A DNA stretch of 64,000 nucleotides from Candidatus Woesearchaeota archaeon (GTDB taxonomy: Archaea; Nanobdellota; Nanobdellia; Pacearchaeales; GW2011-AR1). The first letter of the stretch is position 1; each line of letters starts with the position of its first letter. Shown one piece after another: positions 11,035 through 30,799 of this stretch. The translations under genes were made by a program, and so were the position numbers. The DNA is taken from assembly GCA_964401675.1 (NCBI GenBank), contig CAYNZD010000001.1, positions 12,007-76,006 of the forward strand, written 5' to 3'. The notes under the pieces were generated by a model. That model was not told the origin of the DNA. It ran no database searches and saw nothing but the letters and a program-made list of their open reading frames with translations.

Positions 11035-11036
11035 AT

Positions 11037-16140: not shown

Positions 16141-17754
16141 ATGGGTGATGAAAAAGAGGAAGCGAGGAAATATTCTTTTCTTGACGATAATAATAGGGGG
16201 AAAGATATGAATTGGGCTATTGGGGAAGTTTTGACGAAAATATACAAACCCGGGGACCTAGCATCGATAGGAATGTATAATTTTAATAAGAGTAAATTTC
16301 AACCACTTTCGTCATACAAATTAAGTTATGATTCTCAGCAAAATCAGGTAGAGCCATCATACTATTGGCTGTTGGATTGGCTAGGAGAAAGAAACTGGGA
16401 TTTGAGAAAAATAGTCGATAATTTTGTGGCATCTCCCGGCTCAGGACAATTTTCTGAGATGAACATGAAAGCAACAAAAATGCAGGAAGAAGGAATGAAA
16501 ATTCTTGGAGGACTGAACCAAGTTGTTAAATCAGTTCTGAATTTAATTTATGATTTAAAAGAATTTGAATTAAGGCTGGAGCATTATGATGATGTAAATT
16601 CGGAGGACTCAAATAAAAAGAAAGAAGGGATGTTGGCGTTGAAGCAAATTTGGCTAGACAATGTTGATTTGAAACGAGGGCGTGGCTCGATTCACCAGAT
16701 GGCCGCTGAGCTTGGTTTTACAACGGTAAGAGAAGTTTTTATGATGGCGGATTCGCAGAAAGACTTAAAGAAAATGAACAGCGACGAAGAAGGAGGATTG
16801 ATTAATGATCAAGTTTTGAGAATTTTGATTCCAAGGCTGAGCGAATTTTTGAAGTGGACTGATTATTCGGAGAGAGAACTAAGAAAGAGGTTTAGTATTG
16901 AGAAAAATTATCTGAAGTCACAAGTTGAGACGATTAAGTTGTATTCTGCTTGGATGAAACCATATTTAATTGCGGCAGAAAAATTGAGACAAAAGGGTTT
17001 TGATAATCATTCTGCTTTGGTTAATGCGTTTTCTACATCAATGTTTGAGTTGCAGCTATTTGGAAAACAGGAAGTATCCGTCGATGACATTAGGTTTCCT
17101 AATTATAATCCAAAAAGAAAATATTACAAAGTAATGATTATTGCAATTGAATTTCGAGGCCATGTTTCGCAAAGGGTGACACAGAAAGGTGATTATGGAT
17201 TTGGAATGGGAGGTAAGATTAATATAGATTATGATTGCTATGCATTAAACGACGAAGAGTTGGCAACGGCGAAAAAATTAGTTGATGATGCAGATGTTGA
17301 AAAAAGTTTACAATTTTCTGGGGATATTGCTGGAGACGCACTAAAAGAATTGAAAGAAGATTTAGATTATTTTCTAATGAGTAAAGAGGACAAAGAAAAA
17401 GAAGAGGGGGAAATTCCGAAGAAGGAAAAGGCTCAGGATATTAATCCGTTTGCGGCTTTATTTGGATTGGGCAAAAAGAAAAAGAAAAAAACTGGACCTA
17501 AAGATGAAAAAATGATTTTGGAACCTGAAGACATAAAGAAAGATAACTTTGTTGAAAAGACAATGAGAGGCGAAGCAGCGGTAGGAGCTGCAGATTGGTT
17601 ATATTTAGCTTATGATATTTACAAAAAAGCTCATCTTATGGCGTCGCCACCTAGAGAAGGATTTGATAGATTTGGTACTGGCGCTATTGGAGAATTAAAA
17701 GAAGGTGGCAATGTCAAATTTGGTAAGGCATTTAAGAGTAGAGATGCTAATTAG
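16141..17754 (+). CDS. hypothetical protein (537 aa), first gene of an uncharacterised three-gene cluster
   Basis: Long ORF with ATG at 16141. It has a central Lys/Glu-rich low-complexity segment and no recognised domain. Confidence 0.5.
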   Translation: MGDEKEEARKYSFLDDNNRGKDMNWAIGEVLTKIYKPGDLASIGMYNFNKSKFQPLSSYKLSYDSQQNQVEPSYYWLLDWLGERNWDLRKIVDNFVASPGSGQFSEMNMKATKMQEEGMKILGGLNQVVKSVLNLIYDLKEFELRLEHYDDVNSEDSNKKKEGMLALKQIWLDNVDLKRGRGSIHQMAAELGFTTVREVFMMADSQKDLKKMNSDEEGGLINDQVLRILIPRLSEFLKWTDYSERELRKRFSIEKNYLKSQVETIKLYSAWMKPYLIAAEKLRQKGFDNHSALVNAFSTSMFELQLFGKQEVSVDDIRFPNYNPKRKYYKVMIIAIEFRGHVSQRVTQKGDYGFGMGGKINIDYDCYALNDEELATAKKLVDDADVEKSLQFSGDIAGDALKELKEDLDYFLMSKEDKEKEEGEIPKKEKAQDINPFAALFGLGKKKKKKTGPKDEKMILEPEDIKKDNFVEKTMRGEAAVGAADWLYLAYDIYKKAHLMASPPREGFDRFGTGAIGELKEGGNVKFGKAFKSRDAN

Positions 17755-17787
17755 CAAGGTAAATAAAGTTTGTTTCTGTGAAATTAT

Positions 17788-18366
17788 ATGGCAAAAGATG
17801 AAGAAATAATTGAAGAACTTGATGAAAATAGCGATAGCGAAATAGGAGAGGAGAAAATAGAGGAGAGTGGAATTTTTGATGAGGATACTGATGAGTCTGA
17901 GCTGAATTTTGAAGAGGCTGATGAGAGTATTAGCGATTTTTCTATTGGAGATACAATTCTATCTTCAGCTTCGACGATGCAAATAAGACAATCACATAAT
18001 TTAGAAGATCTTGCCGGCAAAGATAAAACAGAGGGTTCTGGATGGGATAGTTCTGGTGAAGTTAATGAGGAAGAAAAAAATGAAAGAGATTTTTATAATA
18101 ATTCAAGTGGGAATCTTTATGAGGGGAGTCAAGGCGAAGGAAATTCATATCAAAATGGAAACGAAAATTTATATTCGGAGAAAAGCGATGGAAAGAATGC
18201 TTATGATTTTGAAAAAGTTAGTATTAAGAGTTATGACCAACTTAAAGATGAACGAAGGGGAAGTAAGTCTATGTTGGAAATTTCCGGATTTGAAGACAAT
18301 GAAAAACAGAAACATAAAGAATTTACTCGTGATTTTGTTGCTTATGATGCAGATAAGGCGGCGTAG
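17788..18366 (+). CDS. highly acidic, low-complexity (probably disordered) protein
   Basis: 192 aa rich in D, E, S, N and G (EELDENSDSEIGEEKIEES...). It sits 33 nt after the upstream gene and 38 nt before the next. Confidence 0.4.
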   Translation: MAKDEEIIEELDENSDSEIGEEKIEESGIFDEDTDESELNFEEADESISDFSIGDTILSSASTMQIRQSHNLEDLAGKDKTEGSGWDSSGEVNEEEKNERDFYNNSSGNLYEGSQGEGNSYQNGNENLYSEKSDGKNAYDFEKVSIKSYDQLKDERRGSKSMLEISGFEDNEKQKHKEFTRDFVAYDADKAA

Positions 18367-18404
18367 TTAATTTTAAATAATAAGATAAGTTTAGTTTCTT
18401 GGTG

Positions 18405-20375
18405 ATGGCGTACAATACGACAAGTTATGAATCTATTTATGAAGGAGGTGCGAGTTCGCTTAGTCCCGATTATGGAAATTTTACTGGTTATCGGATGAGT
18501 GCAGCACAGTTGGGTTTTCCTGGGTCTCCACAAACAGCTAATCAGCTAGGAGAAACAATTAATGCATTGAAACAAGGAGTGAAGGCGTTTGAAGTTACAA
18601 TGCTTACGCCTGATACAGCTGAAACAATTCCGACACAACATTTTAAGGAAATGAGAGCGCTAATGAAGCTCAGTGGAGTTAAGCCTTCGGTGCATGGCCC
18701 AATGATTGACGCGGCTGGTTTTGATGAGAAAGGTAATTGGGGTAATGGATTTGGGAGAGAAGATGCGGAAAGAAGAATGTTTGACACGATAGAGAAAGCT
18801 GCGATATTAGATTCAAAGGGAAATGTTCCCGTTGTTTTTCATTCTTCGGCGGGAGCACCGGGTGCGGAATTTAGACCGGGGAAAAAGGAATGGGGAGAGA
18901 AGGGAGACATTATGCAAAGGGGTGCAATGATTAATAGGGAAACTGGAGCGGCTCAGGGTATTAAAAGAGAATATAAACTTAGACCAGAAGCTCCTGGACT
19001 TTTAGATAAGGGCGGAGAGATTACTGGACGCGACGAGAAGGGAAGGTTGACTTATGAACATATAAAAGACCGTCCTGCGGGAGTTTTGTTTAGTGCAGAA
19101 GGTACTATTAATGCTGCAAATTTGGGTGATTGGGAAGGAAAATTAATGGAAGTTGCTCAGATGAATAAACACGCAGAAGAGATTATGGGATTGGCACATT
19201 TAAAATTAAGGGACTATGGTAATGCTTTTATTGACAAAGACGGAAGAATTGTTGATTTTAAGGAGGGCGAAAAGACGAGGAGAGATTTAAAACCTTTTAA
19301 TGAAGATGCTGAGCAGGTTGATTCTTATAACAAGCTAAAGAGAGCAGATTTGTTTCTTGAAAATGCTGATTTGTCCTTTAAATCGGCTTTTCATCAAGCA
19401 TATAAATATTCAGATAGTAATCAAAAAAAGAAATTAAAGAAATTGTCTGAGAAGTATGCTGACGATATAGATGCTGCCTCAAGAGCCATAAGAATGGGAG
19501 ATAATATTGGAGTAGGCATATGGAATCCCGTCAAAAAGCATGAGGTCCTTACTGAATCTCTTAATAAGCTGAAAGAGCTTACCGACCCTAATTTAGGGGG
19601 AAAGCTTCCAAAAATTTACCAAGAGGCGAATGCTTTTGCGATGGATAAGGCGTCAGAAACTTTTGGGAATTTGGCAATGAAATCTTATAATAAGCTTGGT
19701 GAGAAGAAATCACCTGTTTTAGCTATTGAGCCGTTTCATCCTGGGGCGGGGCTGTCTAGTACTGATGATATGATTAAGCTAGTTAAAGAATCTAGGAAAA
19801 AATTCGCGAAACAATTAGTTGAAGATAAAAATTTCAACGAGGAGAGGGCGAAAAAAATTGCAGAAAGTAAAATTGGTGTGACATGGGATGTTGGCCATAT
19901 TAACATGATTAAAAAATATGGATTTACAGATAAAGATATTGTGGAACAAACTAAGAAAATCGCACCCATGGTTAAACATATCCACCTGACTGATAATTTT
20001 GGTCATGCGGATACACATTTAGCTCCCGGGATGGGGAATGTTCCCATTAAGGATATTTTGGAGGAGTTGGAAAAGACGGGAAGACTTGATGAGATGAGAA
20101 AAATTACAGAGGCAGGGGCATTTGTTCAGCATTTTAAAAAATCGCCGCATCCTTTGACAATGGCTGCATTTGGTTCGCCGATATATGGGATGAAGTCTGC
20201 ACCATATTGGAACCAGGTGATGGATATTCAGGGCTCATACTTCGGTGGATATGGAACCGTTAATCCTTCTCAGCATCATTCAATATATGGATCGGGATTT
20301 ACTACAATGCCAGTTGAACTAGGTGGACAAATGCCTGGTGGACAATCTAGACTCAGTGGAACTCCGATGGCTTAG
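18405..20375 (+). CDS. endonuclease IV / xylose-isomerase-like TIM-barrel protein with a ~270-aa insertion and Gly/Tyr/Ser-rich termini
   Basis: Segments align to Nfo/AP_endonuc_2 motifs. SVHGPMIDAAG matches AHVSAAGG, VVFHSSAGAPG matches NFHPGSH, LAIEPFHPGAG matches VIENTAGQG, IGVTWDVGHINM matches VCIDTCHAFAAG, and HIHLTDNFGHADTHLAPGMGNVP matches MHLNDAKS..DRHHSLGEGNIG. The first and second halves of the barrel are about 270 aa apart. The track start is TTG 18399, with an ATG at 18405. Confidence 0.5.
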   Translation: MAYNTTSYESIYEGGASSLSPDYGNFTGYRMSAAQLGFPGSPQTANQLGETINALKQGVKAFEVTMLTPDTAETIPTQHFKEMRALMKLSGVKPSVHGPMIDAAGFDEKGNWGNGFGREDAERRMFDTIEKAAILDSKGNVPVVFHSSAGAPGAEFRPGKKEWGEKGDIMQRGAMINRETGAAQGIKREYKLRPEAPGLLDKGGEITGRDEKGRLTYEHIKDRPAGVLFSAEGTINAANLGDWEGKLMEVAQMNKHAEEIMGLAHLKLRDYGNAFIDKDGRIVDFKEGEKTRRDLKPFNEDAEQVDSYNKLKRADLFLENADLSFKSAFHQAYKYSDSNQKKKLKKLSEKYADDIDAASRAIRMGDNIGVGIWNPVKKHEVLTESLNKLKELTDPNLGGKLPKIYQEANAFAMDKASETFGNLAMKSYNKLGEKKSPVLAIEPFHPGAGLSSTDDMIKLVKESRKKFAKQLVEDKNFNEERAKKIAESKIGVTWDVGHINMIKKYGFTDKDIVEQTKKIAPMVKHIHLTDNFGHADTHLAPGMGNVPIKDILEELEKTGRLDEMRKITEAGAFVQHFKKSPHPLTMAAFGSPIYGMKSAPYWNQVMDIQGSYFGGYGTVNPSQHHSIYGSGFTTMPVELGGQMPGGQSRLSGTPMA

Positions 20376-20454
20376 GAAATTTTTTATTTTCAATTAACTT
20401 TAAAAGTTATTAATTTTTTAGATGATAAGGTGACAATTTTTATTGTTGAATATT

Positions 20455-22236
20455 AAAATGGAAAATAAAAAAATAGGAAATCCAATATGGAATGTTATTA
20501 AAACAGAATGGAAATACTTGGGAGATCGGAAAAAGATTTTTGTTTTGTATATGTCTCTATTTGTTATAGCAGGAATAATAAATTTACTTAATCCGTTGGT
20601 AATTGGACTTATTTTTAATTCAATTCAGCAAACTATTGGTTCTGACGCAGAATTGAAAAAATTGATTTCTATGATTTTTTTACTTTTAGCACTTACAATT
20701 GGATTTTGGATTTTTCATGGAGCAGGAAGGATTCTCGAGGAGTTGACAGGTTTTCAGGTTCAAAGAAATTATACTAATTCGAAAATTAAAAGGATTTTAG
20801 AATTGCCGGTGAGATGGCATAAAGACCATCATTCAGGAGACACAATCGACAAAGTTAATAGAGGGAGAAATGCTATTGGTTCTTTTTCAGAGTCTGCTAC
20901 TTTCTCAATAGTTTATGCAATTCTGAATATTTTTGGAGCTTTAATAATTTTGTTTTTTATAGATAAAAAAATAGCTATTTTTGCCATGGTATTTTCTTTT
21001 TCAGTTTTGTTTGCAATAATGAAAATTGATAAAAGATTATCTAGATATTATCAAAAATTGAATAAATACAGCAATAAGCTTTCTTCTGCAATTTTTGATT
21101 ATTTAAGCAATATTATGACGGTTATTACTTTACGTTTGAAAAAAACGGTATCGCAAGAAATCGATGATAAATTTATGGCAGCATATAAAATTAATAAAAA
21201 GAGTTTATTTTTGAATGAATTTAAATGGGGGTTCGCAAGTATCTCTATCTCTCTCATGACCGTGTTGGCTTTAAGCTATAGGGCATATTCTGATTATTAT
21301 AGTGGTGGAATAATTTTAATTGGAACTCTTTATATGTTATATGGCTATCTGAAAACAGTCGGAAATACTTTTTATGAATTTGCTCATTTGTATGGAACTA
21401 TTATAAAATATGATGCAAGAATTCGGGGCGCATATCCAATTGACGAGGCGTTTGAAAAAATTGGAGAGGAATCCAATGGAAGATTGCCTTATGGGTGGAA
21501 AGAAATTGAATTGAAAAATTTAAATTTCAAATACGATCATTCTATTGAAAAGAGCAACCTTAAGGATGTTAACGTTAAATTTAAAAATGGGCAAAAGATT
21601 GCTTTAGTCGGCGAAAGTGGTTCGGGTAAAAGTACAATTTTGTCTATTATTAGGGGACTTTATCCCACTGACAAGGGAAGTGTTTATTTTGATGGCATGA
21701 AATTGAAGAAAGGTATCAATGAGCTTAAGCAAAGCGTTAGCTTGATTCCACAGGACCCTGAAATTTTTAATAATACAATTAAATATAATATGACAATGGA
21801 TTTGAAAACCAGCAAGGAAGATTTGATGAAAGCTGTTAAAATGGCGAGATTTGGCGACGTGGTTAAGAGATTGGAAAATGGATTAGATACTAACGTTTTA
21901 GAAAAAGGAGTTTCGTTGAGTGGCGGAGAAAAGCAAAGACTTGCATTAGTTCGAGGATTACTTGCTGCAAGAAAAAGTGATATTGTTTTATTGGACGAGC
22001 CAACGAGCAGTGTAGATAGCTTGAATGAGATGAAAATTCATGATAACATATTTAAGGAATTTGAAGATAAAACAATTATATCCTCGATACATAGGCTTCA
22101 TCTTCTTGATAAGTTTGATTATATTTATATGTTTGAGCAAGGAAAAATAATAGCAGAAGGAAATTTGGAAGAGATTAAGAAAAATATAAAGTTCATGTAT
22201 ATATGGAGAAAATATGGGGCAGGAAGAAAAAAATAG
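20455..22236 (+). CDS. ABC transporter, fused permease and ATP-binding protein (MsbA-like exporter)
   Basis: N-terminal TM helices are followed by Walker A (GESGSGKST), the ABC signature (LSGGEKQRLALVRGL) and Walker B (IVLLDEPTSSVD). Confidence 0.8.
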   Translation, partial: KMENKKIGNPIWNVIKTEWKYLGDRKKIFVLYMSLFVIAGIINLLNPLVIGLIFNSIQQTIGSDAELKKLISMIFLLLALTIGFWIFHGAGRILEELTGFQVQRNYTNSKIKRILELPVRWHKDHHSGDTIDKVNRGRNAIGSFSESATFSIVYAILNIFGALIILFFIDKKIAIFAMVFSFSVLFAIMKIDKRLSRYYQKLNKYSNKLSSAIFDYLSNIMTVITLRLKKTVSQEIDDKFMAAYKINKKSLFLNEFKWGFASISISLMTVLALSYRAYSDYYSGGIILIGTLYMLYGYLKTVGNTFYEFAHLYGTIIKYDARIRGAYPIDEAFEKIGEESNGRLPYGWKEIELKNLNFKYDHSIEKSNLKDVNVKFKNGQKIALVGESGSGKSTILSIIRGLYPTDKGSVYFDGMKLKKGINELKQSVSLIPQDPEIFNNTIKYNMTMDLKTSKEDLMKAVKMARFGDVVKRLENGLDTNVLEKGVSLSGGEKQRLALVRGLLAARKSDIVLLDEPTSSVDSLNEMKIHDNIFKEFEDKTIISSIHRLHLLDKFDYIYMFEQGKIIAEGNLEEIKKNIKFMYIWRKYGAGRKK

Positions 22237-22256
22237 GGCAAAAATTTATAACAACC

Positions 22257-22265
22257 TTTATAAAA
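22257..22265 (+). promoter_or_regulatory. TATA box (tttataaaa) about 30 nt upstream of ATG 22294
   Basis: AT-rich TATA-like element at leaderless spacing. Confidence 0.3.
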
Positions 22266-22293
22266 TATAATTGCTACTAATTATTAGTAAAAG

Positions 22294-23220
22294 ATGGTGA
22301 AGAAAATAGCTAAGAAAGCAAATAAAAGCGTTGGAAATTTTGCGCATCCTAAATCGAAGAAGCCTAAAGTGAATTCTGGAAAAAAAGTGGAGTCAAAATA
22401 TATAACGAAAACTATGAAAAAAGAAGTGCCGACTTTGGCAATTGCGGGCGAGCGTGAAATTGCTTCGGATTTTGCAATAAAAGTTTATGATAAATTTGAT
22501 CAGATGATTAAATCAATTATTTTGTTTGGGTCTTCGGCAAAGAAAGTTGCGACTGCGGGTTCCGATATTGATATTATTATTATTATTGACGATGTTTCGG
22601 TGAGATGGGATCAAAGTTTAATTGCTTGGTATCGCGAAGAACTTGGGAAAATAGTTAAAGCAAATCCCTATGCTAAAACATTGCATATTAATACAGTTAA
22701 GTTGTCTACGTGGTGGGACGATATGATGAGGGGAGATCCGGTTGTAATTAATATTTTAAGATATGGAGATGCACTAGTTGACATTGGAGGATTTTTTAAT
22801 CCGTTGCGAATTTTATTAAAAGAAGGCAGAATTCGTTCTACCCCTGAATCAATTTATACATTGTTACAGAGAGCGCCAGGACATCTTACTAGAGCAAAGC
22901 AATCAATGCTTGCAGTTGTTGATGGGCTTTATTGGACGATGGTTGATTCGGCACATGCGGCTTTAATTGCTGCAGATGTTATGCCATCTTCTCCCGAGGC
23001 AATTCCAGAAGTTTTAACTGAAAAATTTGTTAAGGAGAAAAAGCTTGATAAGAAATATGTTGATTATTATTCTGAGATTCACATAGTTGCCAAAGAAATT
23101 ATTCACGGCAAAATGACCTCTGTTAAAGGTAGCGATTTAGATAATTGGTTTGAGAAAACGGATGATTTCTTGGGAGAAATGGCAAAATTAGTTGATTCTT
23201 TAATTGATAGCAAGGAATAG
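22294..23220 (+). CDS. Pol-beta-superfamily nucleotidyltransferase with a C-terminal helical domain (KNTase-like architecture)
   Basis: Basic N-terminal tail, followed by the NTase motif ILFGSSAKKVATAGSDIDIIIIID (GS ... DxD). It is a paralog of the 23661 gene across the C-terminal region (SPEAIPEVL is similar to SPEAIDMFM). Confidence 0.65.
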   Translation: MVKKIAKKANKSVGNFAHPKSKKPKVNSGKKVESKYITKTMKKEVPTLAIAGEREIASDFAIKVYDKFDQMIKSIILFGSSAKKVATAGSDIDIIIIIDDVSVRWDQSLIAWYREELGKIVKANPYAKTLHINTVKLSTWWDDMMRGDPVVINILRYGDALVDIGGFFNPLRILLKEGRIRSTPESIYTLLQRAPGHLTRAKQSMLAVVDGLYWTMVDSAHAALIAADVMPSSPEAIPEVLTEKFVKEKKLDKKYVDYYSEIHIVAKEIIHGKMTSVKGSDLDNWFEKTDDFLGEMAKLVDSLIDSKE

Positions 23221-23271
23221 TAGAGTAGACGCCTCAAGAAAATTTTTATATTTTATTTAACAAATATTAAT

Positions 23272-23616
23272 ATGAGAAATAAAAAAATTGTGATATTACT
23301 GGAAATTTTGTTTCATGATAGCTAGTTCGTCAGCCTCATCCTTAAATGCTGTGGGAAATATTACGCAACTGGAAATATAACTTTAAGTCAGAAAATAGTT
23401 TTTAGCCCTGGAGAAATAATCGATAATGTCCTTAATGGTTTAGTTAGAGTTATGGGAGGATTGAATGTTATAAATAGTTCTGGAAATAGTAAATTTTTTG
23501 GAAATGTTACTTCTGGAAATGTGGGGATAGAAACTTCGGAGCCGAATGAAACTTTGCATGTGCAAGGTACAGACCCTGTTTTTGTAACTGGTGGAAAAAT
23601 AACCTATTCTTATTAA
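23272..23616 (+). pseudogene. gene remnant: a short frame interrupted by an in-frame TAG, encoding a beta-helix or tail-fibre-like repeat fragment
   Basis: ATG 23272, then MRNKKIVILLEILFHDS, then TAG at 23323-23325. The frame continues FVSLILKCCGKYYATGNITLSQ...GNVTSGNVGIETSEPNETLHVQGTDPVFVTGGKITYSY to TAA 23614-23616. TAG is used as a stop elsewhere (for example at 9906). Nothing is intact. Confidence 0.35.
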
Positions 23617-23660
23617 TCAAAAGTAACAACATTTAAAAACAAAAAACACAATATCTAGTT

Positions 23661-25505
23661 ATGACAGAACACAAAAGTAATTCTGAAGAAAAATCGGTAG
23701 AACAAAATTTAGAGAAAGATTATAAATCAAAAACTGAAAGCTTGCCAGTATCAAATCAAATCGATGATGCATTAAAGAAAAAAATGAATATAACGCAAAA
23801 AGATATTGAAAAGTTCAAAACAGAATTTCTGAAAAAATACAAATCGGCCGAAGCTATGGGCATAGTTCCTGCGCAAGCCGCAGAAAAAATAGAAGAAGAA
23901 TATGAAATTTCTGAAGAAGATGCAAAAAGAAAGCTAATACATCTCGTAGTATTTATTCCAGAAAAACAATTCAAAAATATAGCGCAGATTCGATTAGACG
24001 CGATATCAACAGCAAAAAAAATCAACGACAAATTTTGGATACATGTAATGACACCGGTTGACTATTGGAACTTGGGTCTTGATTCAAAATTCGAAGTAAT
24101 GGAAGCAATAGCAATGTCCTATCCAATTATGGATAAGGGCATCTTGAGCCATATACGGGTTGCCCAAATTCACAAATCTCTTGTTTTAAAAAAATTCGAA
24201 AAATATGTAACATCTTATGTAATTGGTGGTTCATTAACGACGGGTACAACAAAAAAAGATTCAGATGTAGACGTTTTCATAGTTATCGACGACACAGACG
24301 TAAAACGAATGCCAAGATTAGAACTTAAAGAAAAACTTCGAGGTATAATTTATTCTTATATTCAAGAAGCAGAAGCAATTGCGGGTGTGAACAAAAACAC
24401 GTTGAATGTTCAGGTTTATTTAATAACAGAATTTTGGGAAGCAGTAAAAGATGCTCATCCCGTAATGTTCACATTTATTCGAGACGGCATCCCATTATAT
24501 GACAGAGGTACGTTTCTTCCATGGAAATCTTTATTACGAATGGGGAAAATCAAACCAAGCCCAGAAGCAATTGATATGTTTATGTCTTCAGGAAATAAAC
24601 TCAAGGAAACAATAGAAAAACGAATCTTTGACGTTGCAACGCTGGATTTATTTTGGGGAATTTCAACACCAACTCAGGGATTATTAATGCTTTACGGACT
24701 CGCTCCACCAAACGTTTACGAAACTGTAAAGCAATTCAGAGAAGTTTTTGTAAAAAAAGAAAAATTAGTTGAACAAAAATATGCAGATATTCTCGAAGAA
24801 ATTGTTATTAAAGTTTGGAAAGCATACGAACATGGAAAAATTAAGCCAGGAGACATAGATGGCAAAAAGCTCGACCAATTATCCAAAGACGCCTTAGATT
24901 ATATTAAAAGATTAAAAGAATTAAGAGAACAAATTGAGAAACGAATTCAGGAAAAATCAATAGAGCAAATTTATAATGATGTTTTTGGAATGTTGGGATC
25001 GTTACTAAAGAAAAAGTCCGAAGTGGAAATATTGAAAAAATTCAACGAAAAACTAATTCAAGAAGGACGTTTTCCTCCAAGATTTTTGGATAATTTAAAA
25101 TTAATTTCTAAAACAAAGAAGAATATTTCAAAAATCAAGAAAGGTATGAAAAAAGATAATCTAACATTAAAACAAAGTCAGGATGTTGATAATGCGAGAA
25201 AACTAGCAATGGAAATTACGACAGCGCTAGTGGAATACAGCCAGCGATGCGAATTGGCAGTATTAAAAAAATCACGATTCTTGATTGAAGGCAAAGATAC
25301 AAGTGCGGAAATTTTCTTTCTTTCAAGCACTTTTATAGTTCAAGGTTCAAAAATTCAAAAAATATTCGGTGAAAAATTGATAAAATCAAATTCAAAAGAA
25401 TTACAAGAACAACTTGAAAAACAAAAAAACAAAAAAACAAAAATTGATTTTGAATCTCTTGAAATTCTCAAAAAAATATTCGGCAAATTTGATTTAGTTT
25501 ATTAA
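23661..25505 (+). CDS. large Pol-beta-superfamily nucleotidyltransferase paralog (614 aa) with N- and C-terminal extensions
   Basis: NTase motif VIGGSLTTGTTKKDSDVDVFIVIDD. The downstream helical region is homologous to the 22294 protein. It has an extra ~180-aa N-terminal region and a ~200-aa Lys-rich C-terminal region. Confidence 0.6.
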   Translation: MTEHKSNSEEKSVEQNLEKDYKSKTESLPVSNQIDDALKKKMNITQKDIEKFKTEFLKKYKSAEAMGIVPAQAAEKIEEEYEISEEDAKRKLIHLVVFIPEKQFKNIAQIRLDAISTAKKINDKFWIHVMTPVDYWNLGLDSKFEVMEAIAMSYPIMDKGILSHIRVAQIHKSLVLKKFEKYVTSYVIGGSLTTGTTKKDSDVDVFIVIDDTDVKRMPRLELKEKLRGIIYSYIQEAEAIAGVNKNTLNVQVYLITEFWEAVKDAHPVMFTFIRDGIPLYDRGTFLPWKSLLRMGKIKPSPEAIDMFMSSGNKLKETIEKRIFDVATLDLFWGISTPTQGLLMLYGLAPPNVYETVKQFREVFVKKEKLVEQKYADILEEIVIKVWKAYEHGKIKPGDIDGKKLDQLSKDALDYIKRLKELREQIEKRIQEKSIEQIYNDVFGMLGSLLKKKSEVEILKKFNEKLIQEGRFPPRFLDNLKLISKTKKNISKIKKGMKKDNLTLKQSQDVDNARKLAMEITTALVEYSQRCELAVLKKSRFLIEGKDTSAEIFFLSSTFIVQGSKIQKIFGEKLIKSNSKELQEQLEKQKNKKTKIDFESLEILKKIFGKFDLVY

Positions 25506-25543
25506 AAGATTAAATTTATAAAGCAATTTTTCGGACAACTAAT

Positions 25544-25810
25544 ATGGTTACTGCAAAGGTTATCCAATTTCGCAGAGGGCGAAAAAATTATACTCCTAGA
25601 CACTTCCTTCTCGAAATTCCAGGGATTGATTCTCGAGAAAAAGCAAAAGAATTCGTTGGCAAAACAGCTAATTGGAAATCCCCAGGCAAAGAACCAAAAA
25701 TAATCACAGGTAAAATTTCTTCAGCGCATGGTGGAAATGGCGTTGTCCGAGCAATCTTCGAGAGAGGTTTGCCAGGTCAAGCAATCGGCACTGATGTTGA
25801 GGTAAACTAA
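25544..25810 (+). CDS. rpl35ae: 50S ribosomal protein L35Ae
   Basis: 88 aa reading MVTAKVIQFRRGRKNYTPRHFLLEIPGIDSREKAKEFVGK..., an L35Ae-family pattern. Confidence 0.8.
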   Translation: MVTAKVIQFRRGRKNYTPRHFLLEIPGIDSREKAKEFVGKTANWKSPGKEPKIITGKISSAHGGNGVVRAIFERGLPGQAIGTDVEVN

Positions 25811-25811
25811 A

Positions 25812-26345
25812 ATGGCATTAAGAAAGGCATCGGCATACAGCAAGCGTTACGCAAGACCCTACACGCGTAAGTCCAAAAAACGAACTAAGTCTTATATTAA
25901 AACGGTTCCAAATTCCAAAATCGTAAAATTCAAAATGGGTGACCTCAAAGGTTTTACAGAGGAAAAATATCCTATTCAACTTCATGTAATCTCAAAAGAA
26001 AATTGTCAAATTCGGGACAATTCAATTGAAGCAGTCCGGCAGTTTTTAAATCGTTTTCTTCAAATTAAAGTTGGAAAAGAGTTTTATTTAGAGGTGAAAA
26101 TTTATCCACACCATATACTAAGGGAAAATAAAATGCTTACTGGAGCAGGAGCTGACCGTATGCAAACGGGTATGAGTCGGTCTTTTGGCAAAACAATTGG
26201 TCGAGCAGCGTTAGTAAAATCAGACCAAGTACTTTACATTGTAGGAGTTAAAAATACAAAAGCAGAAACAGAAGCAAGAAAATTAATCAGATCTATAAAG
26301 GCGAGATTAGCATGCAAGGTCACAACAAAAACTATTAAAGCTTAA
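25812..26345 (+). CDS. rpl10e: 50S ribosomal protein L10e (uL16)
   Basis: MALRKASAYSKRYARPYTRKSK... is a conserved L10e N-terminus. The gene is 177 aa. Confidence 0.85.
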   Translation: MALRKASAYSKRYARPYTRKSKKRTKSYIKTVPNSKIVKFKMGDLKGFTEEKYPIQLHVISKENCQIRDNSIEAVRQFLNRFLQIKVGKEFYLEVKIYPHHILRENKMLTGAGADRMQTGMSRSFGKTIGRAALVKSDQVLYIVGVKNTKAETEARKLIRSIKARLACKVTTKTIKA

Positions 26346-26348
26346 CTT

Positions 26349-27425
26349 ATGGAAAGCACATTTTTTATTCTAGGCAGAAACCCTAAGCTATCGAGAGCAG
26401 AAGTCCTCGAATTTCTGAAGTCCAGAAACATAAAACATAAAGAAATTCTATTCGAAAAAAACCTTCTAATTATAGATACCGAAGAAAAATTTAATATCCA
26501 AGAATTTGGCGGAATAATATGGCTCGGACAAATAAATTTTGAAGGAGAATCTCAAGAATTCGAAAAATATATTGGACTAAATGAAATCATCCCAAGCGAC
26601 AAATTCTCGTATGCCATATTTGGCAATCAAGATACACAAATTCTAAAAGACAAGTTCAAAAAAGAAAAGAAAAAAGCAACAATAAAACATGGACGGAAAC
26701 AAATTAAATTTCAGGATGGTGAAAAACACGAACTTCCATCAGCAGATTTTTATATTTTTTATCACGAATATAAGGATACAATTTATTTCGGTATAGTAAC
26801 GCAATCTTATGACAATACAGAAATAAAAAACCGTGACATGAATAAACCTGTCAGAAGAGAATCCCTCGCGATTTCACCTAGACTTGCAAAAATATTAATT
26901 AATTTATCGGGAGCAAAACAAAACGATTTATTTTTAGATCCTTTCTGTGGTGTAGGCGGTATACTTCAAGAAGCACTCTTGAAAAAAATAAACGTTCATG
27001 GAATAGACAAGGATAAATCTGCCACAGAGGATGCCAAAATAAATATAAAATGGCTCAGCTCTCAATATAACATAAAAAATGCCCATAAAATTGAAAATAA
27101 TAATTCCAAAGATGCTCCAAACTTACAATTTGATGCAATCGCAACCGAAACGCCACTTGGGGAAGTTCTTAGAAAAAAGCCAAATGACAATCAAGCAAAA
27201 AAAATCATCTTAGATTTTGAGAGCCACATTATTCCAATTTTAAGACGATTAAAAATAATAAAAAAACCACTTGCAAAAATTGCCATAACACTTCCGACAA
27301 TCAGAACATTTCACGCAGATGCTGAAAAAATTGCTGAAAAAACTGGATTAAAAATTTATACAAATCCAATATTAGAATCTCGTCCTGACCAATACATCTC
27401 CAGAGACATCATGGTTTTTCAATAA
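26349..27425 (+). CDS. class I SAM-dependent RNA methyltransferase (Trm11/Trm-G10 or RlmL-like)
   Basis: Motif I LDPFCGVGGILQEA (DPFCGxG is typical of N2-G/N6-A RNA MTases). A ~190-aa N-terminal domain is possibly THUMP-like. The candidate motif IV TETPLG is divergent. Confidence 0.5.
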   Translation: MESTFFILGRNPKLSRAEVLEFLKSRNIKHKEILFEKNLLIIDTEEKFNIQEFGGIIWLGQINFEGESQEFEKYIGLNEIIPSDKFSYAIFGNQDTQILKDKFKKEKKKATIKHGRKQIKFQDGEKHELPSADFYIFYHEYKDTIYFGIVTQSYDNTEIKNRDMNKPVRRESLAISPRLAKILINLSGAKQNDLFLDPFCGVGGILQEALLKKINVHGIDKDKSATEDAKINIKWLSSQYNIKNAHKIENNNSKDAPNLQFDAIATETPLGEVLRKKPNDNQAKKIILDFESHIIPILRRLKIIKKPLAKIAITLPTIRTFHADAEKIAEKTGLKIYTNPILESRPDQYISRDIMVFQ

Positions 27426-27491
27426 TTTAGTTACTCCTTTAAAGACACAACAAAACAAAACCTTTATATACCCAATTTAACGTATTTTCAT

Positions 27492-27911
27492 ATGGAAAAC
27501 CCTAATGAAAGTGGAACACCTTTAAGCACATGGAATACCTCTAATGAACTTGGTTCTCTAGGCAAAGCAAAAATAGATTCCCTCAAGGACATTGTTTCAG
27601 AAATTGAAAATATGATTGGAGAAAGAACTATCCTTAGTTCAAAATTTGTCAAAGAAGGCGAAAACATGAAAGTAAAAATTCACAATTTTCTTTTAGAGAA
27701 CGAGCCAAAAGGCGAAAACGATTCTGAGTTTACACGAGAAAGAGCTGAATTACGAAAAAAGCAAATTGAAATCTCAGAACTTCAACTTAACGAAAAAATA
27801 GGATGCTGGAGAGATATTTCATTATTGAAAAAAGAGCTTCGAGAAAATAATAAAGAATTAAATGAAAAAGAAAGCCGAATAAAAATGTTCGGAGAAATTT
27901 TGAAAGAATAA
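27492..27911 (+). CDS. hypothetical coiled-coil protein
   Basis: 139 aa with Glu/Lys-rich heptad-like repeats. The ATG sits 16 nt upstream of the HerA-like ATPase gene. Confidence 0.35.
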   Translation: MENPNESGTPLSTWNTSNELGSLGKAKIDSLKDIVSEIENMIGERTILSSKFVKEGENMKVKIHNFLLENEPKGENDSEFTRERAELRKKQIEISELQLNEKIGCWRDISLLKKELRENNKELNEKESRIKMFGEILKE

Positions 27912-27927
27912 TAAATAAAATTTCACG

Positions 27928-29823
27928 ATGAGACAACAAACATTAACCATAGAAGAAATTTGCAACAAGCTTAGACCTTTCTTTGAGAAAAAAATTGACG
28001 AGATGTATTTTCAGTATGCCATGGCAGATAGCCGAGAAGAAAAAGAAGAAATCGCGCATATTTTGAATATGCTTTATCAAAAATACTTAAATCAACTATT
28101 GGATAAAAGTGTCTTACTAGAACCCCCGAGGAAAGAATTGATTGATGGAACATATAACCTTGCAACAATTAGTTATGCGGGAAGAAAGCTTTTTGATTTT
28201 TCATTAAGAGAGCAGGATTGGCCGCGACACATTTGCGTTACAGGCATGTCTGGTTCCGGAAAAACAACTTTCGCATTCAAAATAATTGAAGCTCTGAATA
28301 AGCACAATAAACCCTATTTAGTTTTTGATTGGAAAAAATCCTTTCGGCCACTTTCGGCAGAGAATAATTCAATTATGACTTTTACCGTCGGCAATGAAAA
28401 AGTAACCAACCTATTCAAGACAAATATAAATCAGCCACCTAAAGGGGTAACTCCAAAAGAATGGATTAATGTTTTATCCGGCCTTTTAACTGAAAGTTTC
28501 TCCGCATCGTTTGGCGTCCATAAAATAATTTTAGAAACGTTAGATCAAGCATTCAAAGAATGGGGAATTTATAGTGGATCAGAAAATTATCCAACATGGA
28601 ATCACATTAAATGGAAAATGGAAGAAAAATTAGATAAAGCTAAAGGCAGAGAGGCAGGATGGATGGAATCCGCATTAAGAATTGCGACCGTAATGACTTT
28701 CGGAGAATTCGGAAAAACAATGAACTATAAAGGAAACAATAGTTTCACAGTTGAAGAACTACTAGACAAAAAAGTAATTATGGAATTAAATTCTCTGGGT
28801 GGTGTAGAAAAAACTTTTTTTTGTGAATTTATCTTAACTTACATCTACAAATTAAAAAAAGCAATGCCCAATGAAATGAATCATGGATTCGACCACGCGA
28901 TTATCGTCGACGAAGCACATAATATTTTCTTAAAAAAACCAACGAGTTTTTCCAACGAATCTACAACTGATATGATATATCGAGAAATGAGAGAATATGG
29001 AACAAGTCTTATTTGTCTCGACCAACATATTTCAAAAATCTCTGATACAGTCAAAGGCAATAGTGCATGCCATATTGCATTTCAGCAACAGCTGCCTCAA
29101 GATATTCGAGATATAAGCGACATTATGAATCTTGGAGAAAACCGGCAATATTTTTCTCAACTTCCCGTAGGAAATGCAATTGTGAAACTCGCAGAAAGAC
29201 ACACCTCGCCTTTCTTAATAGAAGTTCCATATGTCGAAATGCGAAACAAAAATATAACGGATGAATATATCAAATCCAAAATGCAAATGACGACACTTGG
29301 TAACGATTATAAAAAAAAAGTAGACCCGAAATTCAACAAAGCGATAGAAGAACCCATATTAATTGAGCCAGTATCAACCGATGCTGGACCAATCGGCACT
29401 TCGAATAATCTAACAGAAATACAGCAAATATTATATGATTTTATTACAGCCCATTTAGAAGCTGGTATGGAATTAGAAGAAATTGAAAAAACTTTAGAAA
29501 AAAGTAAAGAACAAGGAAACTACACAACTTCGGACATAATATACACTATTAACTTGATTTTTGAAAATCAATTAACTCTATCGCCTCAAAATTTAAAAAT
29601 AAATGAAAATAGTAATTTAAGTTTAGATGAAAAAAATTTTACGGAATTTCTTCAGAAAAATCCAAAACATATTCTAAGCACAACTGAGCTATATTTACAA
29701 TTGGGACTTTCAGCAAGGAAGGGAACAATGGTAAAAAAAGGATTAGAAGAAAAGGAATTGATTAAAATCGAAGAAATAAAATATAACAAAGGTTGGAAAA
29801 AAATAATTAGACCATCCAATTAA
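27928..29823 (+). CDS. FtsK/HerA-superfamily ATPase (DUF87/HerA-like) with a C-terminal winged-helix-like domain
   Basis: Walker A HICVTGMSGSGKTT and Walker B AIIVDEAHNIF. The size and motif spacing are typical of HerA/VirB4-like DNA-translocating ATPases. The C-terminus LSTTELYLQLGLSARKGTMVKKGLEEKELIKIEEI is HTH-like. Confidence 0.65.
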   Translation: MRQQTLTIEEICNKLRPFFEKKIDEMYFQYAMADSREEKEEIAHILNMLYQKYLNQLLDKSVLLEPPRKELIDGTYNLATISYAGRKLFDFSLREQDWPRHICVTGMSGSGKTTFAFKIIEALNKHNKPYLVFDWKKSFRPLSAENNSIMTFTVGNEKVTNLFKTNINQPPKGVTPKEWINVLSGLLTESFSASFGVHKIILETLDQAFKEWGIYSGSENYPTWNHIKWKMEEKLDKAKGREAGWMESALRIATVMTFGEFGKTMNYKGNNSFTVEELLDKKVIMELNSLGGVEKTFFCEFILTYIYKLKKAMPNEMNHGFDHAIIVDEAHNIFLKKPTSFSNESTTDMIYREMREYGTSLICLDQHISKISDTVKGNSACHIAFQQQLPQDIRDISDIMNLGENRQYFSQLPVGNAIVKLAERHTSPFLIEVPYVEMRNKNITDEYIKSKMQMTTLGNDYKKKVDPKFNKAIEEPILIEPVSTDAGPIGTSNNLTEIQQILYDFITAHLEAGMELEEIEKTLEKSKEQGNYTTSDIIYTINLIFENQLTLSPQNLKINENSNLSLDEKNFTEFLQKNPKHILSTTELYLQLGLSARKGTMVKKGLEEKELIKIEEIKYNKGWKKIIRPSN

Positions 29824-29890
29824 TTCACATTCACACAAACAAAACAAAAATCCACACAACAAATACAACAAACAACAAACAACAACAATT
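29824..29890. repeat. CA-rich low-complexity tract (ACAAA / CAACAA microsatellite-like)
   Basis: cacattcacacaaacaaaacaaaaatccacacaacaaatacaacaaacaacaaacaacaacaa. It lies immediately after the ATPase stop. Confidence 0.5.
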
Positions 29891-30119
29891 CAATACATAA
29901 ATATTGAATTCAGCAACTCGCCAAAAATAAGTGGATAAAAACAAAAGAACGAAATACCTTCGCAGAAAATCAAAAAATCTGTGGAATAAGTTAATTCGAA
30001 AGAAGGAAATATTAGACTTGTCTTTAAGAAAGTTTCAGATATATGGTGGAATATCTTGATTATGAGGTATTTCAAACTAATTATTAGAAATAATTAACTA
30101 ACAAAGGGGGAACTAAGAG

Positions 30120-30545
30120 ATGAAGAAAATATTTGTCATTACAATTATTATGTTAACTATAGCATTTTCTTTCAGCAACCCGGCATTGGCAGAAGATTTA
30201 AGCGGGTATATCGGAACTTCAATATTCCCGGTAAACGACGAACACGATACCAATGGGACGGTTGAAGGATACGCGGAATATGCGCGCAAAAACTTTTTTG
30301 TTTCCGCAGAAGGAGAATTTTGGATTACAAACAACGTGCCAGAAAAGACAAGAACGGACAACTCCTACATTACAGGAACAAGTTTCGGCACATTCGGTTA
30401 TTTGTCCGATGTTCAACTTGGTATAGGATATAAACTGCCAAAAGGTTTTGATATAAGGTTAATTTATCGAAACCAGAGGTGGTATACCGGCTATGAAGGA
30501 GATTCGACGGGGATACAAGTCCGATGGAATTTTGGGAAAAATTAA
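30120..30545 (+). CDS. secreted beta-rich protein with a signal peptide
   Basis: Signal peptide MKKIFVITIIMLTIAFSFSNPALA. The mature part has alternating hydrophobic and polar stretches and ends RWNFGKN. A Shine-Dalgarno aagggggaac sits upstream. Confidence 0.45.
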   Translation: MKKIFVITIIMLTIAFSFSNPALAEDLSGYIGTSIFPVNDEHDTNGTVEGYAEYARKNFFVSAEGEFWITNNVPEKTRTDNSYITGTSFGTFGYLSDVQLGIGYKLPKGFDIRLIYRNQRWYTGYEGDSTGIQVRWNFGKN

Positions 30546-30669
30546 ACTTTAAAATAAGAGAGAGGAGGGCAAAAACACAACTCTATCAATTAGGGGAGGG
30601 AAAGAAATCTTTACATTAATTCTTTCCTTCCATGGACTTAACAATAAACTAACAGGAAGGAGTTTATTT

Positions 30670-30783
30670 ATGGCGAGAAAAAGGAAGCCGTCAGGAAAAG
30701 GAGGAAATAACATTTGTCCTAGATGTGGAAAATACAAAGCCTCTAGGCAAGACATATGTACGAAATGTCAACGAAATAAATAA
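30670..30783 (+). CDS. small basic zinc-ribbon protein (37 aa)
   Basis: MARKRKPSGKGGNNICPRCGKYKASRQDICTKCQRNK has CPRC...CTKC, a 4-Cys zinc ribbon. A GGAGG-like site (ggaaggag) sits 8 nt upstream. The gene is below the ORF-track size cutoff. It weakly resembles L37e-type ribosomal Zn ribbons, which is uncertain. Confidence 0.4.
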   Translation: MARKRKPSGKGGNNICPRCGKYKASRQDICTKCQRNK

Positions 30784-30799
30784 CAGAAAGGAAGAAATT

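What the first reader, a model, noticed from the sequence alone, without database searches (positions are those of the whole stretch)
23221..23660. Abrupt switch of strand compositional skew at a gene-fragment junction
The switch is visible at codon third positions, by eye.
- Left of ~23.2 kb, plus-strand genes use T/G-ending codons. Examples are the 8410, 20455 and 22294 genes (gtg aag ... gtt gga aat ttt gcg). The top strand of minus-strand genes there, such as infB, is T-rich.
- Right of ~23.66 kb, plus-strand genes use A/C-ending codons. Examples are the 23661 gene (aca gaa cac ... atc gat gat gca, ttc, gac), L35Ae, gatD, gatA and ftsZ. The top strand of minus-strand genes there, such as proS and gatB, is C-rich.
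- Both sides are core housekeeping genes, so this is not foreign DNA. It is a flip in mutational strand bias from G>C and T>A to C>G and A>T on the top strand.
- That is the polarity expected at a replication terminus. An inversion breakpoint or a contig misjoin would look the same.
- The flip falls in the 440-bp gap that holds a decayed ORF, between two paralogous nucleotidyltransferase genes.
Basis: seen in the sequence. Interest (0 to 1): 0.72.

Follow-up and report, generated by a model that had tools for sequence, protein, structure and literature searches.

The report
Skew flip marks an inversion edge
The abrupt switch in strand composition is real, but it is the edge of a 36-kb chromosome segment that was flipped in this uncultivated DPANN (Pacearchaeota) archaeon, not the place where replication ends.

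Summary
Third-codon-position GC, AT and keto skews all change sign between the gene ending at 23220 and the gene starting at 23661. No gene-order permutation out of 2000 matched the signal, and a base-level change point falls at about 23,550-23,600.

The terminus interpretation is not supported. This organism's own overlapping contigs gave a 98.7-kb composite. In it the G/T-rich "left arm" is only a 36-kb island (window about -12.7 kb to 23.5 kb). C/A-rich DNA of equal strength lies on both sides (keto skew -0.137 / +0.088 / -0.132).

Both island edges coincide with synteny breakpoints.
- Twelve related species have the 308-aa nucleotidyltransferase gene convergent with the block that here runs 37.7 to 23.6 kb.
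- At least 25 relatives have tRNA-Val directly upstream of the 614-aa nucleotidyltransferase gene. Here that tRNA lies about 36.8 kb away, at the island's other edge.
- Relatives with strong skew show uniform skew across the whole region.

Two overlapping inversions explain the layout: X+L flipped once, the 14-kb block B flipped twice. The identical junction in at least 24 contigs from several samples excludes a misjoin. The gap holds a truncated remnant of a repeat-protein gene. This is an ordinary "pseudo-shift point".

The parts
1..23220 (+). Right-hand 23 kb of the inverted segment 'X+L'. The whole segment runs from about -13.1 kb to 23.2 kb in window coordinates. Its top strand is G/T-rich. 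It carries S6e, aIF5B/infB, DUF1846, GluRS, a 537-aa protein, an AP-endonuclease-2-like protein, an ABC transporter and the 308-aa nucleotidyltransferase.
   Evidence: Per-gene skews. Collinear with 12 relatives over window about 12-23.2 kb. Keto skew is +0.088 against -0.13 on both flanks, and the left edge is at -12,654.
22294..23220 (+). 308-aa nucleotidyltransferase gene (PF01909), the last gene of the inverted segment. In relatives its 3' end faces the 3' end of the 285-aa gene that here lies at 36887-37744.
   Evidence: GC3 +0.57, AT3 -0.15.
23221..23606 (+). Junction filler of 386 bp with no counterpart at either ancestral junction. It holds a decayed, truncated remnant of a gene for a large repeat protein. 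There is a short ATG ORF at 23271-23325 that ends in TAG, then a 96-codon open frame at 23326-23613 with its stop at 23614-23616. The repeated xGN codons appear as 4 copies of CTGGAAAT.
   Evidence: Translation. 1335 homologs at E<=1e-3 and 67 at E<=1e-10, proteins of 264-4003 aa that each match many times. CTGGAAAT clustering. No similarity to relatives' junction regions. Composition is left-type.
23607..23660 (+). Conserved promoter and 5' region of the 614-aa nucleotidyltransferase gene. Homology to relatives resumes here. In relatives tRNA-Val lies just upstream, and here it is missing.
   Evidence: blastn at 88% to L010 from 23607 onward. Alignment A1. tRNA-Val lies upstream of this gene in L008, L009, L010, L034, L037 and L057. 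The only tRNA in the window is tRNA-Arg.
23607..37744 (+). Block B, 14.1 kb: 614-aa nucleotidyltransferase, L35Ae, L10e, methyltransferase, a 139-aa protein, a HerA-like ATPase, small ORFs, a 673-aa protein, PPDK and a 285-aa protein. It is inverted relative to the 308-aa gene when compared with 12 related species. It keeps its ancestral orientation relative to R and D.
   Evidence: Synteny maps. The coding-strand skew of each gene has the same sign as the orthologs in most skewed relatives.
37745..37893 (.). Second novel junction: the 3' end of the 285-aa gene now abuts the 3' end of the 42-aa gene that begins R. There is no skew change here.
   Evidence: Relatives have the 41/64-aa genes next to X instead (CNNM/OrnDC).
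37894..64000 (.). Segment R: small genes, ProRS, tRNA-Arg, permease, RRM protein, GatB, GatD/E, AspRS, GatA, FtsZ and others. Its top strand is C/A-rich. In relatives it lies beyond X on the other side of L.
   Evidence: Skews. Third-position strand effect (keto3) -0.311+-0.022.

Best explanation
The flip is a pseudo-shift point, the right-hand edge of a roughly 36-kb chromosomal segment that is inverted in this Pacearchaeota lineage relative to its neighbours.

Gene order:
- Ancestral order, read in the window's direction: D' - tRNA-Val | B | L' - X' | R. This order is conserved in many relatives, and the strand composition is uniform across all of it.
- Order in this organism: D' - tRNA-Val | X - L | filler | B | R.

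Two overlapping inversions using three intergenic breakpoints give this result:
- One inversion flips [B L' X'], about 51 kb.
- The other flips the 14-kb block B.
- The order of the two events is unknown.
- The net result is that X+L is inverted once, and B is inverted twice and so returns to its original orientation.

Genes keep the third-position composition they acquired in their old orientation. The inverted X+L therefore now shows a G/T-rich top strand inside a C/A-rich region. This produces a terminus-like step at 23.6 kb and an origin-like step at about -13 kb.

Shown: the skew steps, the three novel junctions in this organism's own contigs, the ancestral adjacencies in relatives, and the uniform skew in relatives.

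Inferred: the two-inversion path, that the flanks are in native orientation relative to replication, and that the weaker skew of the island (about 65% of the flanks) reflects partial re-equilibration since the inversion.
For: (1) Island. The 98.7-kb composite of this organism has keto skew -0.137, +0.088 and -0.132. The change points are at -12,654 and 23,546.

(2) Contiguity. Contigs L117-L121 carry 301aa-115aa-tRNA-Val-OrnDC-DS-560aa-DHH-TsaD and run into the window's left extension. L121 positions 1-2053 are 100% identical to the reverse complement of L019.

(3) L|B junction. In 12 GTDB species representatives the L block is followed by B in the opposite orientation.

(4) tRNA-Val to 614-aa gene adjacency. 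The 614-aa gene lies next to the DEAD helicase gene in 28 loci, and tRNA-Val sits between them in all six relatives scanned for tRNAs. Homology to relatives stops at 23607.

(5) R'-X-L order. It is seen on single contigs of JAUWIJ010000001.1, k141_70902 (546 kb) and JABHSE010000004.1.

(6) Uniform skew in relatives across D, B, L, X and R.

(7) Each gene's coding-strand skew has the same sign as in most skewed relatives.

(8) The reciprocal junction, OrnDC 3' end | tRNA-Val, shows the opposite-polarity step. OrnDC has GC3 -0.22, and the D genes have +0.53 to +0.85.

(9) Third-position strand effect (keto3): L 0.195+-0.022 and B 0.223+-0.029 are weaker than R 0.311+-0.022.

(10) The junction is identical in all six independently assembled loci fetched, and all 24 contigs read share the same neighbouring genes.

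(11) Inversions are a recognised cause of false skew shift points (PMC3269016; PMC7111523).
Against: - No complete genome of this organism was available, so the true origin and terminus are unknown. The claim that the flanks, not the island, are in the 'native' orientation rests on relatives.
- No repeats or microhomology were found at the breakpoints, so the molecular mechanism of the inversions is open.
- The origin of the 386-bp filler is unexplained.
- The composite was stitched from contigs of slightly different strains. The D' part overlaps the rest at 99.6% identity over 1387 nt.
- B's reduced skew could reflect gene content and not its history.
Confidence: 0.9

Rival explanations
1. 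Replication terminus: two replichores converge in the 440-bp gap and each arm carries its own leading-strand bias.
For: The polarity, G/T-rich to C/A-rich, is the terminus type under the usual rule. That rule holds in a DPANN genome whose skew-predicted origin lies next to cdc6 (PMC5905446). The C/A-rich side runs for at least 50 kb.
Against: - The G/T-rich side ends after 36 kb with an origin-type step at a second synteny breakpoint.
- The site lies inside a uniformly skewed region in every skewed relative.
- The step is narrower than about 100 nt, whereas termination regions in Thermococcales appear as a broad distribution in skew plots (PMC2958812).
- The two 'arms' differ in strength, 0.088 against 0.132.
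- No convincing dif-like site and no XerA gene was found in the window.
Confidence: 0.04
2. The 36-kb island is replicated on its own: an extra origin sits near -13 kb and forks terminate at 23.6 kb, so the skew is actively maintained.
For: The island is bounded by an origin-type step and a terminus-type step. Some archaea use several origins (PMC7111523).
Against: - Both steps sit exactly on rearrangement junctions.
- No Orc1/Cdc6 gene was found among the window's proteins scanned against Pfam, and none is listed among the genes called around the left junction.
- A fork from -13 kb would not be expected to stop at a fixed base.
- The skew signs are the inherited ones.
- The island's skew is weaker than its flanks, as expected for decay and not for maintenance.
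Confidence: 0.03
3. Chimeric contig or misassembly that joins DNA from two places or two organisms.
For: A misjoin would give an equally sharp step. Assemblies of this organism do break repeatedly near the other junction, in the variable 301-aa gene.
Against: - The 3.2-kb junction region is identical in all six fetched loci, which come from several ENA and JGI samples and two assembly pipelines, and all 24 contigs read carry the same neighbouring genes.
- Both sides carry orthologs of one and the same relative's contig.
- All three novel junctions are mutually consistent.
Confidence: 0.01
4. Horizontally acquired DNA with a foreign composition on one side of the gap.
For: Foreign islands can create skew steps (PMC3269016). 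A lineage-specific tyrosine recombinase gene lies in the D region.
Against: Both sides consist of core genes. Their orthologs sit in conserved synteny in a dozen relatives at 60-88% identity. G+C content is the same on both sides.
Confidence: 0.01

Closest known systems
Pseudo-shift points in GC-skew plots caused by chromosomal inversions (reviewed in PMC3269016; used as an assembly check in PMC7111523)
   Same: A segment inverted within a replichore keeps its old strand composition. It therefore appears as a block of opposite skew bounded by one origin-like and one terminus-like step that coincide with synteny breakpoints.
   Different: This case is in an uncultivated DPANN archaeon. The rearrangement has three breakpoints (two overlapping inversions), not a single inversion. 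The steps show most clearly at third codon positions because the lineage has strong strand asymmetry.
Archaeal replication terminus with XerA/dif (Thermococcales; PMC2958812)
   Same: Same sign of skew change.
   Different: - Termini there are broad in skew plots and carry a conserved 28-bp dif site.
- Here the step is under 100 nt wide and lies at a lineage-specific breakpoint.
- There is no conserved dif-like site.
- The opposite-sign composition lasts only 36 kb.
Integrase-driven chromosome inversions at tRNA genes in Thermococcus (pTN3 integrase; PMC5495485)
   Same: - Nested or overlapping large inversions in an archaeal chromosome.
- One breakpoint lies just downstream of a tRNA gene (tRNA-Val).
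- A lineage-specific tyrosine recombinase gene lies about 6.6 kb from that junction.
   Different: - The break lies in the spacer downstream of the tRNA, roughly 70-120 nt past its 3' end by alignment with relatives, not inside the gene.
- The other two breakpoints have no tRNA and no shared sequence.
- Nothing shows that the recombinase acted here.

Membership tests
Replication terminus (fork-convergence region) | Sign change of strand skew with leading-strand polarity (G/T-rich to C/A-rich on the top strand) | tested here: met
Replication terminus (fork-convergence region) | Each side keeps its composition over a whole replichore arm | tested here: not met
   The left-type composition lasts only from -12.7 kb to 23.5 kb. 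Beyond that the top strand is C/A-rich again at the same strength as the right side.
Replication terminus (fork-convergence region) | A chromosome-dimer resolution site (28-bp dif: 11-nt inverted arms with a 6-nt spacer) at or near the switch | tested here: inconclusive
   The only ATAA-6-TTAT palindrome (9 of 11 arm positions) is at 22241-22268, in the promoter position of the 308-aa gene. There are 27 equally good palindromes in 82 kb. No archaeal dif consensus for this phylum was available.
Replication terminus (fork-convergence region) | Comparable skew landmark at the syntenic position in related genomes | tested here: not met
   Skew is uniform across the homologous genes in the strongly skewed relatives sampled.
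Inversion breakpoint (pseudo-shift point) | The skew step coincides with a break in gene order relative to close relatives | tested here: met
   Homology boundary at 23607, change point at 23,546-23,595. Orientation is opposite in 12 species.
Inversion breakpoint (pseudo-shift point) | A partner breakpoint with a step of opposite polarity bounds the inverted block | tested here: met
   The tRNA-Val|OrnDC junction at about -13.1 kb, with a change point at -12,654.
Inversion breakpoint (pseudo-shift point) | Genes retain the coding-strand composition of their orthologs in non-rearranged genomes | tested here: met
   The sign of GC3 and AT3 skew is the same as in most skewed relatives for all 13 genes compared.
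Inversion breakpoint (pseudo-shift point) | The junction is real in the population (reproducible, not an assembly artefact) | tested here: met
   Identical sequence in the six fetched loci from independent assemblies. All 24 contigs read have the same neighbouring genes. Raw reads could not be examined.
Archaeal replication origin (ORB repeats + Orc1/Cdc6) | Origin-type skew polarity, inverted ORB repeats around an AT-rich unwinding element, and an adjacent orc1/cdc6 gene | tested here: not met
   The polarity is terminus-type. The CTGGAAAT repeats are all direct and correspond to xGN codons of the decayed ORF. No Orc1/Cdc6 domain was found in the window proteins scanned.
Integrase-mediated inversion between tRNA genes (Thermococcus pTN3 type) | Breakpoints inside paired, inverted tRNA genes or other shared sequence, and an integrase present | tested here: inconclusive
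   One breakpoint lies downstream of tRNA-Val. No shared sequence was found between junctions. A divergent tyrosine recombinase lies nearby (PF00589 27.2 bits; XerA model 34.8 bits against a cutoff of 220).

The most novel reading that the evidence does not exclude
The clade may be losing replication-linked strand asymmetry step by step. Many Pacearchaeota have very strong asymmetry (third-position GC skew up to +-0.9). This organism is intermediate, and its closest sequenced relative has none. If so, the inverted 36-kb island, at about 65% of the flanks' strength, would be a natural clock for how fast skew re-equilibrates. The loss could also mark a change in replication mode or repair in DPANN archaea.
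Probability: 0.15. Interest if true: 0.55.

Novelty: new member of a known kind. Interest (0 to 1): 0.25.

Why it matters
The main value is as a caution. In a 64-kb window an inversion edge looks exactly like a replication terminus, and only the next 13 kb and comparison with relatives reveal the difference.

The finding also documents three things:
- A precisely mapped three-breakpoint rearrangement in an uncultivated DPANN archaeon, in which every break falls between transcription units.
- Strand asymmetry in Pacearchaeota that is strong enough for rearrangements to be read directly from codon third positions.
- A block of known ancestry whose partial loss of skew could be used to time the event.

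Tried and rejected
- **Origin reading of the gap.** The four CTGGAAAT copies at 23299-23520 looked like mini-ORB repeats. They are all direct, they encode xGN in the decayed reading frame, and the polarity is wrong for an origin.
- **dif search.** A scan for 11-6-11 palindromes gave only one weak ATAA-6-TTAT site, in a promoter position. The published archaeal dif sequences appear only in figures and could not be read.
- **Leading-strand polarity from gene orientation.** Strongly skewed relatives have 290 genes on one strand and 278 on the other, which is uninformative, and the loci are not independent.
- **Skew switches with an Orc1 gene in relatives' loci.** Only two loci had sign changes, and neither was informative.
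- **Repeats or microhomology between the two ends of block B.** Nothing longer than 11-mers was found.
- **Recombination between the two paralogous nucleotidyltransferase genes.** At 26% protein identity this is not plausible, and the breakpoints lie outside both genes.
- **Homologs of the gap ORF.**
  - The word-indexed search found none.
  - The exhaustive HMMER search found 1335.
  - Six of the best hits have no Pfam family.
  - The only family member in a relative's locus is the 1018-aa Laminin_G_3 protein of JAUWIJ, and it does not sit at a homologous junction.
- **Simple in-place inversion of block B alone.** Rejected because no skew step occurs at 37.7 kb and the DEAD helicase cluster is not next to B.
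- **Direct look-up of a left-extension protein.** The route through a cluster look-up worked.

Full report
**1. The observation**

The window has 31-40% G+C with no change across the finding. I computed third-codon-position skews for 59 ORFs.
- Left of 23.2 kb the top strand is G-rich. Plus-strand genes have GC3 skew +0.26 to +0.75, and minus-strand genes -0.08 to +0.47. It is also T-rich.
- From 23661 rightward the top strand is C- and A-rich. Plus-strand genes have GC3 around -0.1 and AT3 +0.1 to +0.4. Minus-strand genes have top-strand GC3 of -0.3 to -0.85.

A weighted two-factor fit separates two effects. One is a coding-orientation effect: the coding strand is G-rich by about 0.20. The other is a strand effect of +-0.36 for GC3 and -+0.20 for AT3. 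Both GC3 and AT3 independently put the best change point at the boundary before 23661.

For keto skew (G+T against A+C), which is nearly blind to coding orientation, the change point explains 973 of 1191 units of weighted variance. None of 2000 gene-order permutations reaches that. A base-level scan places it at 23,595. Inside the gap, 23301-23620 is still left-type and 23621-23660 is right-type.

**2. Not a misassembly**

The 614-aa protein encoded at 23661-25505 occurs with exactly this sequence on at least 24 contigs, from several ENA samples (MEGAHIT) and JGI samples. The six loci fetched are 100% identical to the window over 22294-25505, and all contigs read share the same neighbouring genes.

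**3. Who it is**

Homologs are labelled Pacearchaeota, Nanoarchaeota or Woesearchaeota archaeon. The gene content is archaeal: L35Ae, L10e, S6e, aIF5B, GatDE. The organism is an uncultivated DPANN archaeon.

**4. Relatives show a synteny break at the skew step**

Right of the gap, the order 614-aa nucleotidyltransferase, L35Ae, L10e, methyltransferase, HerA-like ATPase ... PPDK is conserved in every relative. The left flank differs.

Nucleotide homology to relatives upstream of the 614-aa gene ends at window 23607, 54 nt before the ATG (alignment A1). Immediately upstream, all relatives scanned carry tRNA-Val(TAC). Most then carry a small gene and a DEAD-box helicase on the other strand; the 614-aa gene is adjacent to the helicase in 28 loci. 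The window has no tRNA-Val and no homolog of that helicase cluster.

A scan of species-representative genomes with the 308-aa protein gave the reverse view. In 12 species the block that here occupies about 12-23.2 kb is followed directly by the block that here occupies 37.7 to about 25.5 kb, in the opposite orientation. The 308-aa gene and the 285-aa gene are convergent neighbours there. So block B (23607-37744) is inverted relative to L in this organism only.

**5. The rest of the ancestral map**

I used ProRS, the first large gene of R, as a probe. Three relatives' contigs have the order R' (...permease, ProRS, 91-aa, 64-aa, 41-aa), X (OrnDC, deoxyhypusine synthase, DHH...), L (TsaD, L7Ae...), B', tRNA-Val, D. 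The contigs are JAUWIJ010000001.1 (162 kb), k141_70902 (546 kb) and JABHSE010000004.1 (394 kb). The coordinates on single contigs are mutually consistent.

In strongly skewed relatives the strand composition is uniform over all sampled parts of this stretch, which spans at least 75 kb. The whole stretch therefore lies in one replichore in those genomes.

**6. Prediction and test**

Ancestral order in window direction: D' - tRNA-Val | B | L' X' | R. Observed order: X L | B | R. This implies a third novel junction, X (OrnDC 3' end) | tRNA-Val - D', with a skew step of opposite polarity.

One metagenome contig from the helicase scan, L019, showed exactly this. It has OrnDC, then 120 nt, then tRNA-Val, a 301-aa gene and the DEAD helicase. 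OrnDC is C/A-rich on its coding strand (GC3 -0.22) and the D genes are G/T-rich (+0.53 to +0.85).

Its helicase protein occurs in the same ENA samples as the window's proteins. Contigs found through this organism's TsaD protein (L117-L121) prove contiguity:
- They run from the 301-aa gene through tRNA-Val, OrnDC, DS, a 560-aa gene and DHH into TsaD and the window's left extension.
- L121 positions 1-2053 are 100% identical to the reverse complement of L019.

tRNA-Val lies at window coordinates of about -13,256 to -13,186.

**7. The decisive profile**

A 98.7-kb composite of this organism's contigs gives three keto-skew levels:
- -0.137 from -25.2 to -12.7 kb.
- +0.088 from -12.7 to 23.5 kb.
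- -0.132 from 23.5 to 73.5 kb.

The best two change points are at -12,654 and 23,546 on a 100-nt grid. The G/T-rich 'left arm' is therefore a 36-kb island whose two edges are the two outer rearrangement junctions. The flanks match each other in sign and strength. This is what an inverted segment looks like, not two replichores meeting.

**8. Mechanism**

The change from D' tV | B | L'X' | R to D' tV | X L | B | R needs three breakpoints. The shortest path is two overlapping inversions, one of [B L' X'] (about 51 kb) and one of B (14.1 kb), in either order. X+L ends up inverted once and B twice.

All three ancestral and all three derived junctions are intergenic. They join 3' ends to 3' ends, or a 3' end to the intact promoter of the 614-aa gene, so no transcription unit is broken.

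I found no repeats at the junctions. The two paralogous nucleotidyltransferase genes are too diverged to recombine, at 26% protein identity. How the breaks were made is unknown. The two-step path is an inference.

**9. The gap**

Positions 23221-23606 have no counterpart at the ancestral junctions. The 96-codon open frame at 23326-23613 has 1335 homologs at E<=1e-3 (67 at E<=1e-10) in an exhaustive HMMER search. These are proteins of 264 to 4003 aa that each match the fragment many times. The fragment is thus a truncated remnant of a repeat-protein gene, with an in-frame TAG and a probable frameshift upstream. The local cluster of CTGGAAAT reflects its xGN repeats. Where this piece came from is unexplained.

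**10. Age**

Strand effects at third positions (keto3) are 0.195+-0.022 for L, 0.223+-0.029 for B and 0.311+-0.022 for R. The D genes look like R. The once-inverted and twice-inverted segments are thus weaker than the undisturbed flanks. This fits partial re-equilibration, but gene content could contribute, so it is an inference.

**11. Comparison with what is known**

Inversions are a recognised source of false shift points in skew plots (PMC3269016; PMC7111523). The conventional polarity, with the origin at the cumulative-skew minimum next to cdc6, has been reported for one DPANN genome (PMC5905446). Under that rule the step at 23.6 kb has the terminus sign.

Termination regions in Thermococcales appear as a broad distribution in skew plots, not a sharp peak (PMC2958812). 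Overlapping inversions with tRNA genes at their ends are documented in Thermococcus and attributed to a plasmid integrase (PMC5495485). Here only one breakpoint is near a tRNA. A lineage-specific, very divergent tyrosine recombinase lies 6.6 kb from it. That is a lead, not evidence.

**12. Verdict**

The feature is real, sharp and statistically strong, but it is ordinary in kind. It is one edge of a lineage-specific inverted segment, not a terminus, an origin, foreign DNA or a misjoin.

Noticed in passing
Related loci L008, L009, L088, L091, L092, L094, L096-L098; contrast L010/L087/L107 (JAUWIJ010000001.1): Many related Pacearchaeota have very strong strand asymmetry. Coding-strand GC3 skew is +0.8 to +0.93 or -0.5 to -0.8 depending on strand, AT3 is -+0.6, and all-site keto skew is 0.22-0.30. 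The closest relative of this organism has essentially none, only a coding-orientation effect. This organism is intermediate.
   Followed up: partly
L111:7475-8650 (this organism's D region, about 6.6 kb from the tRNA-Val junction, outside the window): A 391-aa divergent tyrosine recombinase. It scores 27.2 bits on PF00589, at the cutoff, and 34.8 bits on the XerA equivalog model, whose cutoff is 220. It could be a mobile-element integrase or this lineage's Xer.
   Followed up: partly
L111:833-1738 / L019:1499-2404 (301-aa gene next to tRNA-Val, outside the window): This gene is hypervariable in the population: its 90%-identity cluster has 27 members. Nearly all assemblies of the organism break in or near it, which is why no single contig spans D' to L.
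   Followed up: partly
window 23661-25505: The 614-aa nucleotidyltransferase-domain protein is highly conserved. It has 4091 homologs, and the best 120 are 68-86% identical at full length. It sits in a conserved cluster of tRNA-Val, this gene, L35Ae, L10e, methyltransferase and HerA-like ATPase. It has no assigned function beyond PF01909.
   Followed up: no
window 37894-38241: The 106-aa plus-strand ORF at 37921-38241 is probably spurious. Two small minus-strand genes of 42 aa and 63 aa lie there and are conserved next to ProRS in relatives.
   Followed up: partly
window 22241-22268: The palindrome AAAATTTATAA-CAACCT-TTATAAAATAT has a dif-like ATAA-6-TTAT core. It lies 26-53 nt upstream of the start of the 308-aa gene, so it is more likely promoter or terminator sequence.
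   Followed up: partly
window 6975-7244: An 89-aa ORF matches only the first 56 positions of the 302-position diphthamide synthase profile (PF01866). A PLD-domain gene follows it directly. This may be a truncated or split gene.
   Followed up: no
window 30000-32150 (L001 versus L002-L006): The gene calls for the small ORFs between the HerA-like gene and the 673-aa gene differ between contigs from different samples. This suggests population-level sequence variation inside block B.
   Followed up: no
L087:10973-11863 (JAUWIJ010000001.1): The closest relative has a 296-aa gene inserted between the convergent 308-aa and 285-aa genes, at the site of one ancestral breakpoint. I recognise an HPFTDGNGR motif in it as Fic-like from my own knowledge; it was not tested with a profile.
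   Followed up: no
window 49995-59712: Both amidotransferase systems appear to be encoded close together: GatB (49995-51491, minus strand), GatD (51542-52780), a GatE-like protein with only the GatB_N domain (53116-54540), AspRS (54762-56048) and GatA (58381-59712).
   Followed up: no
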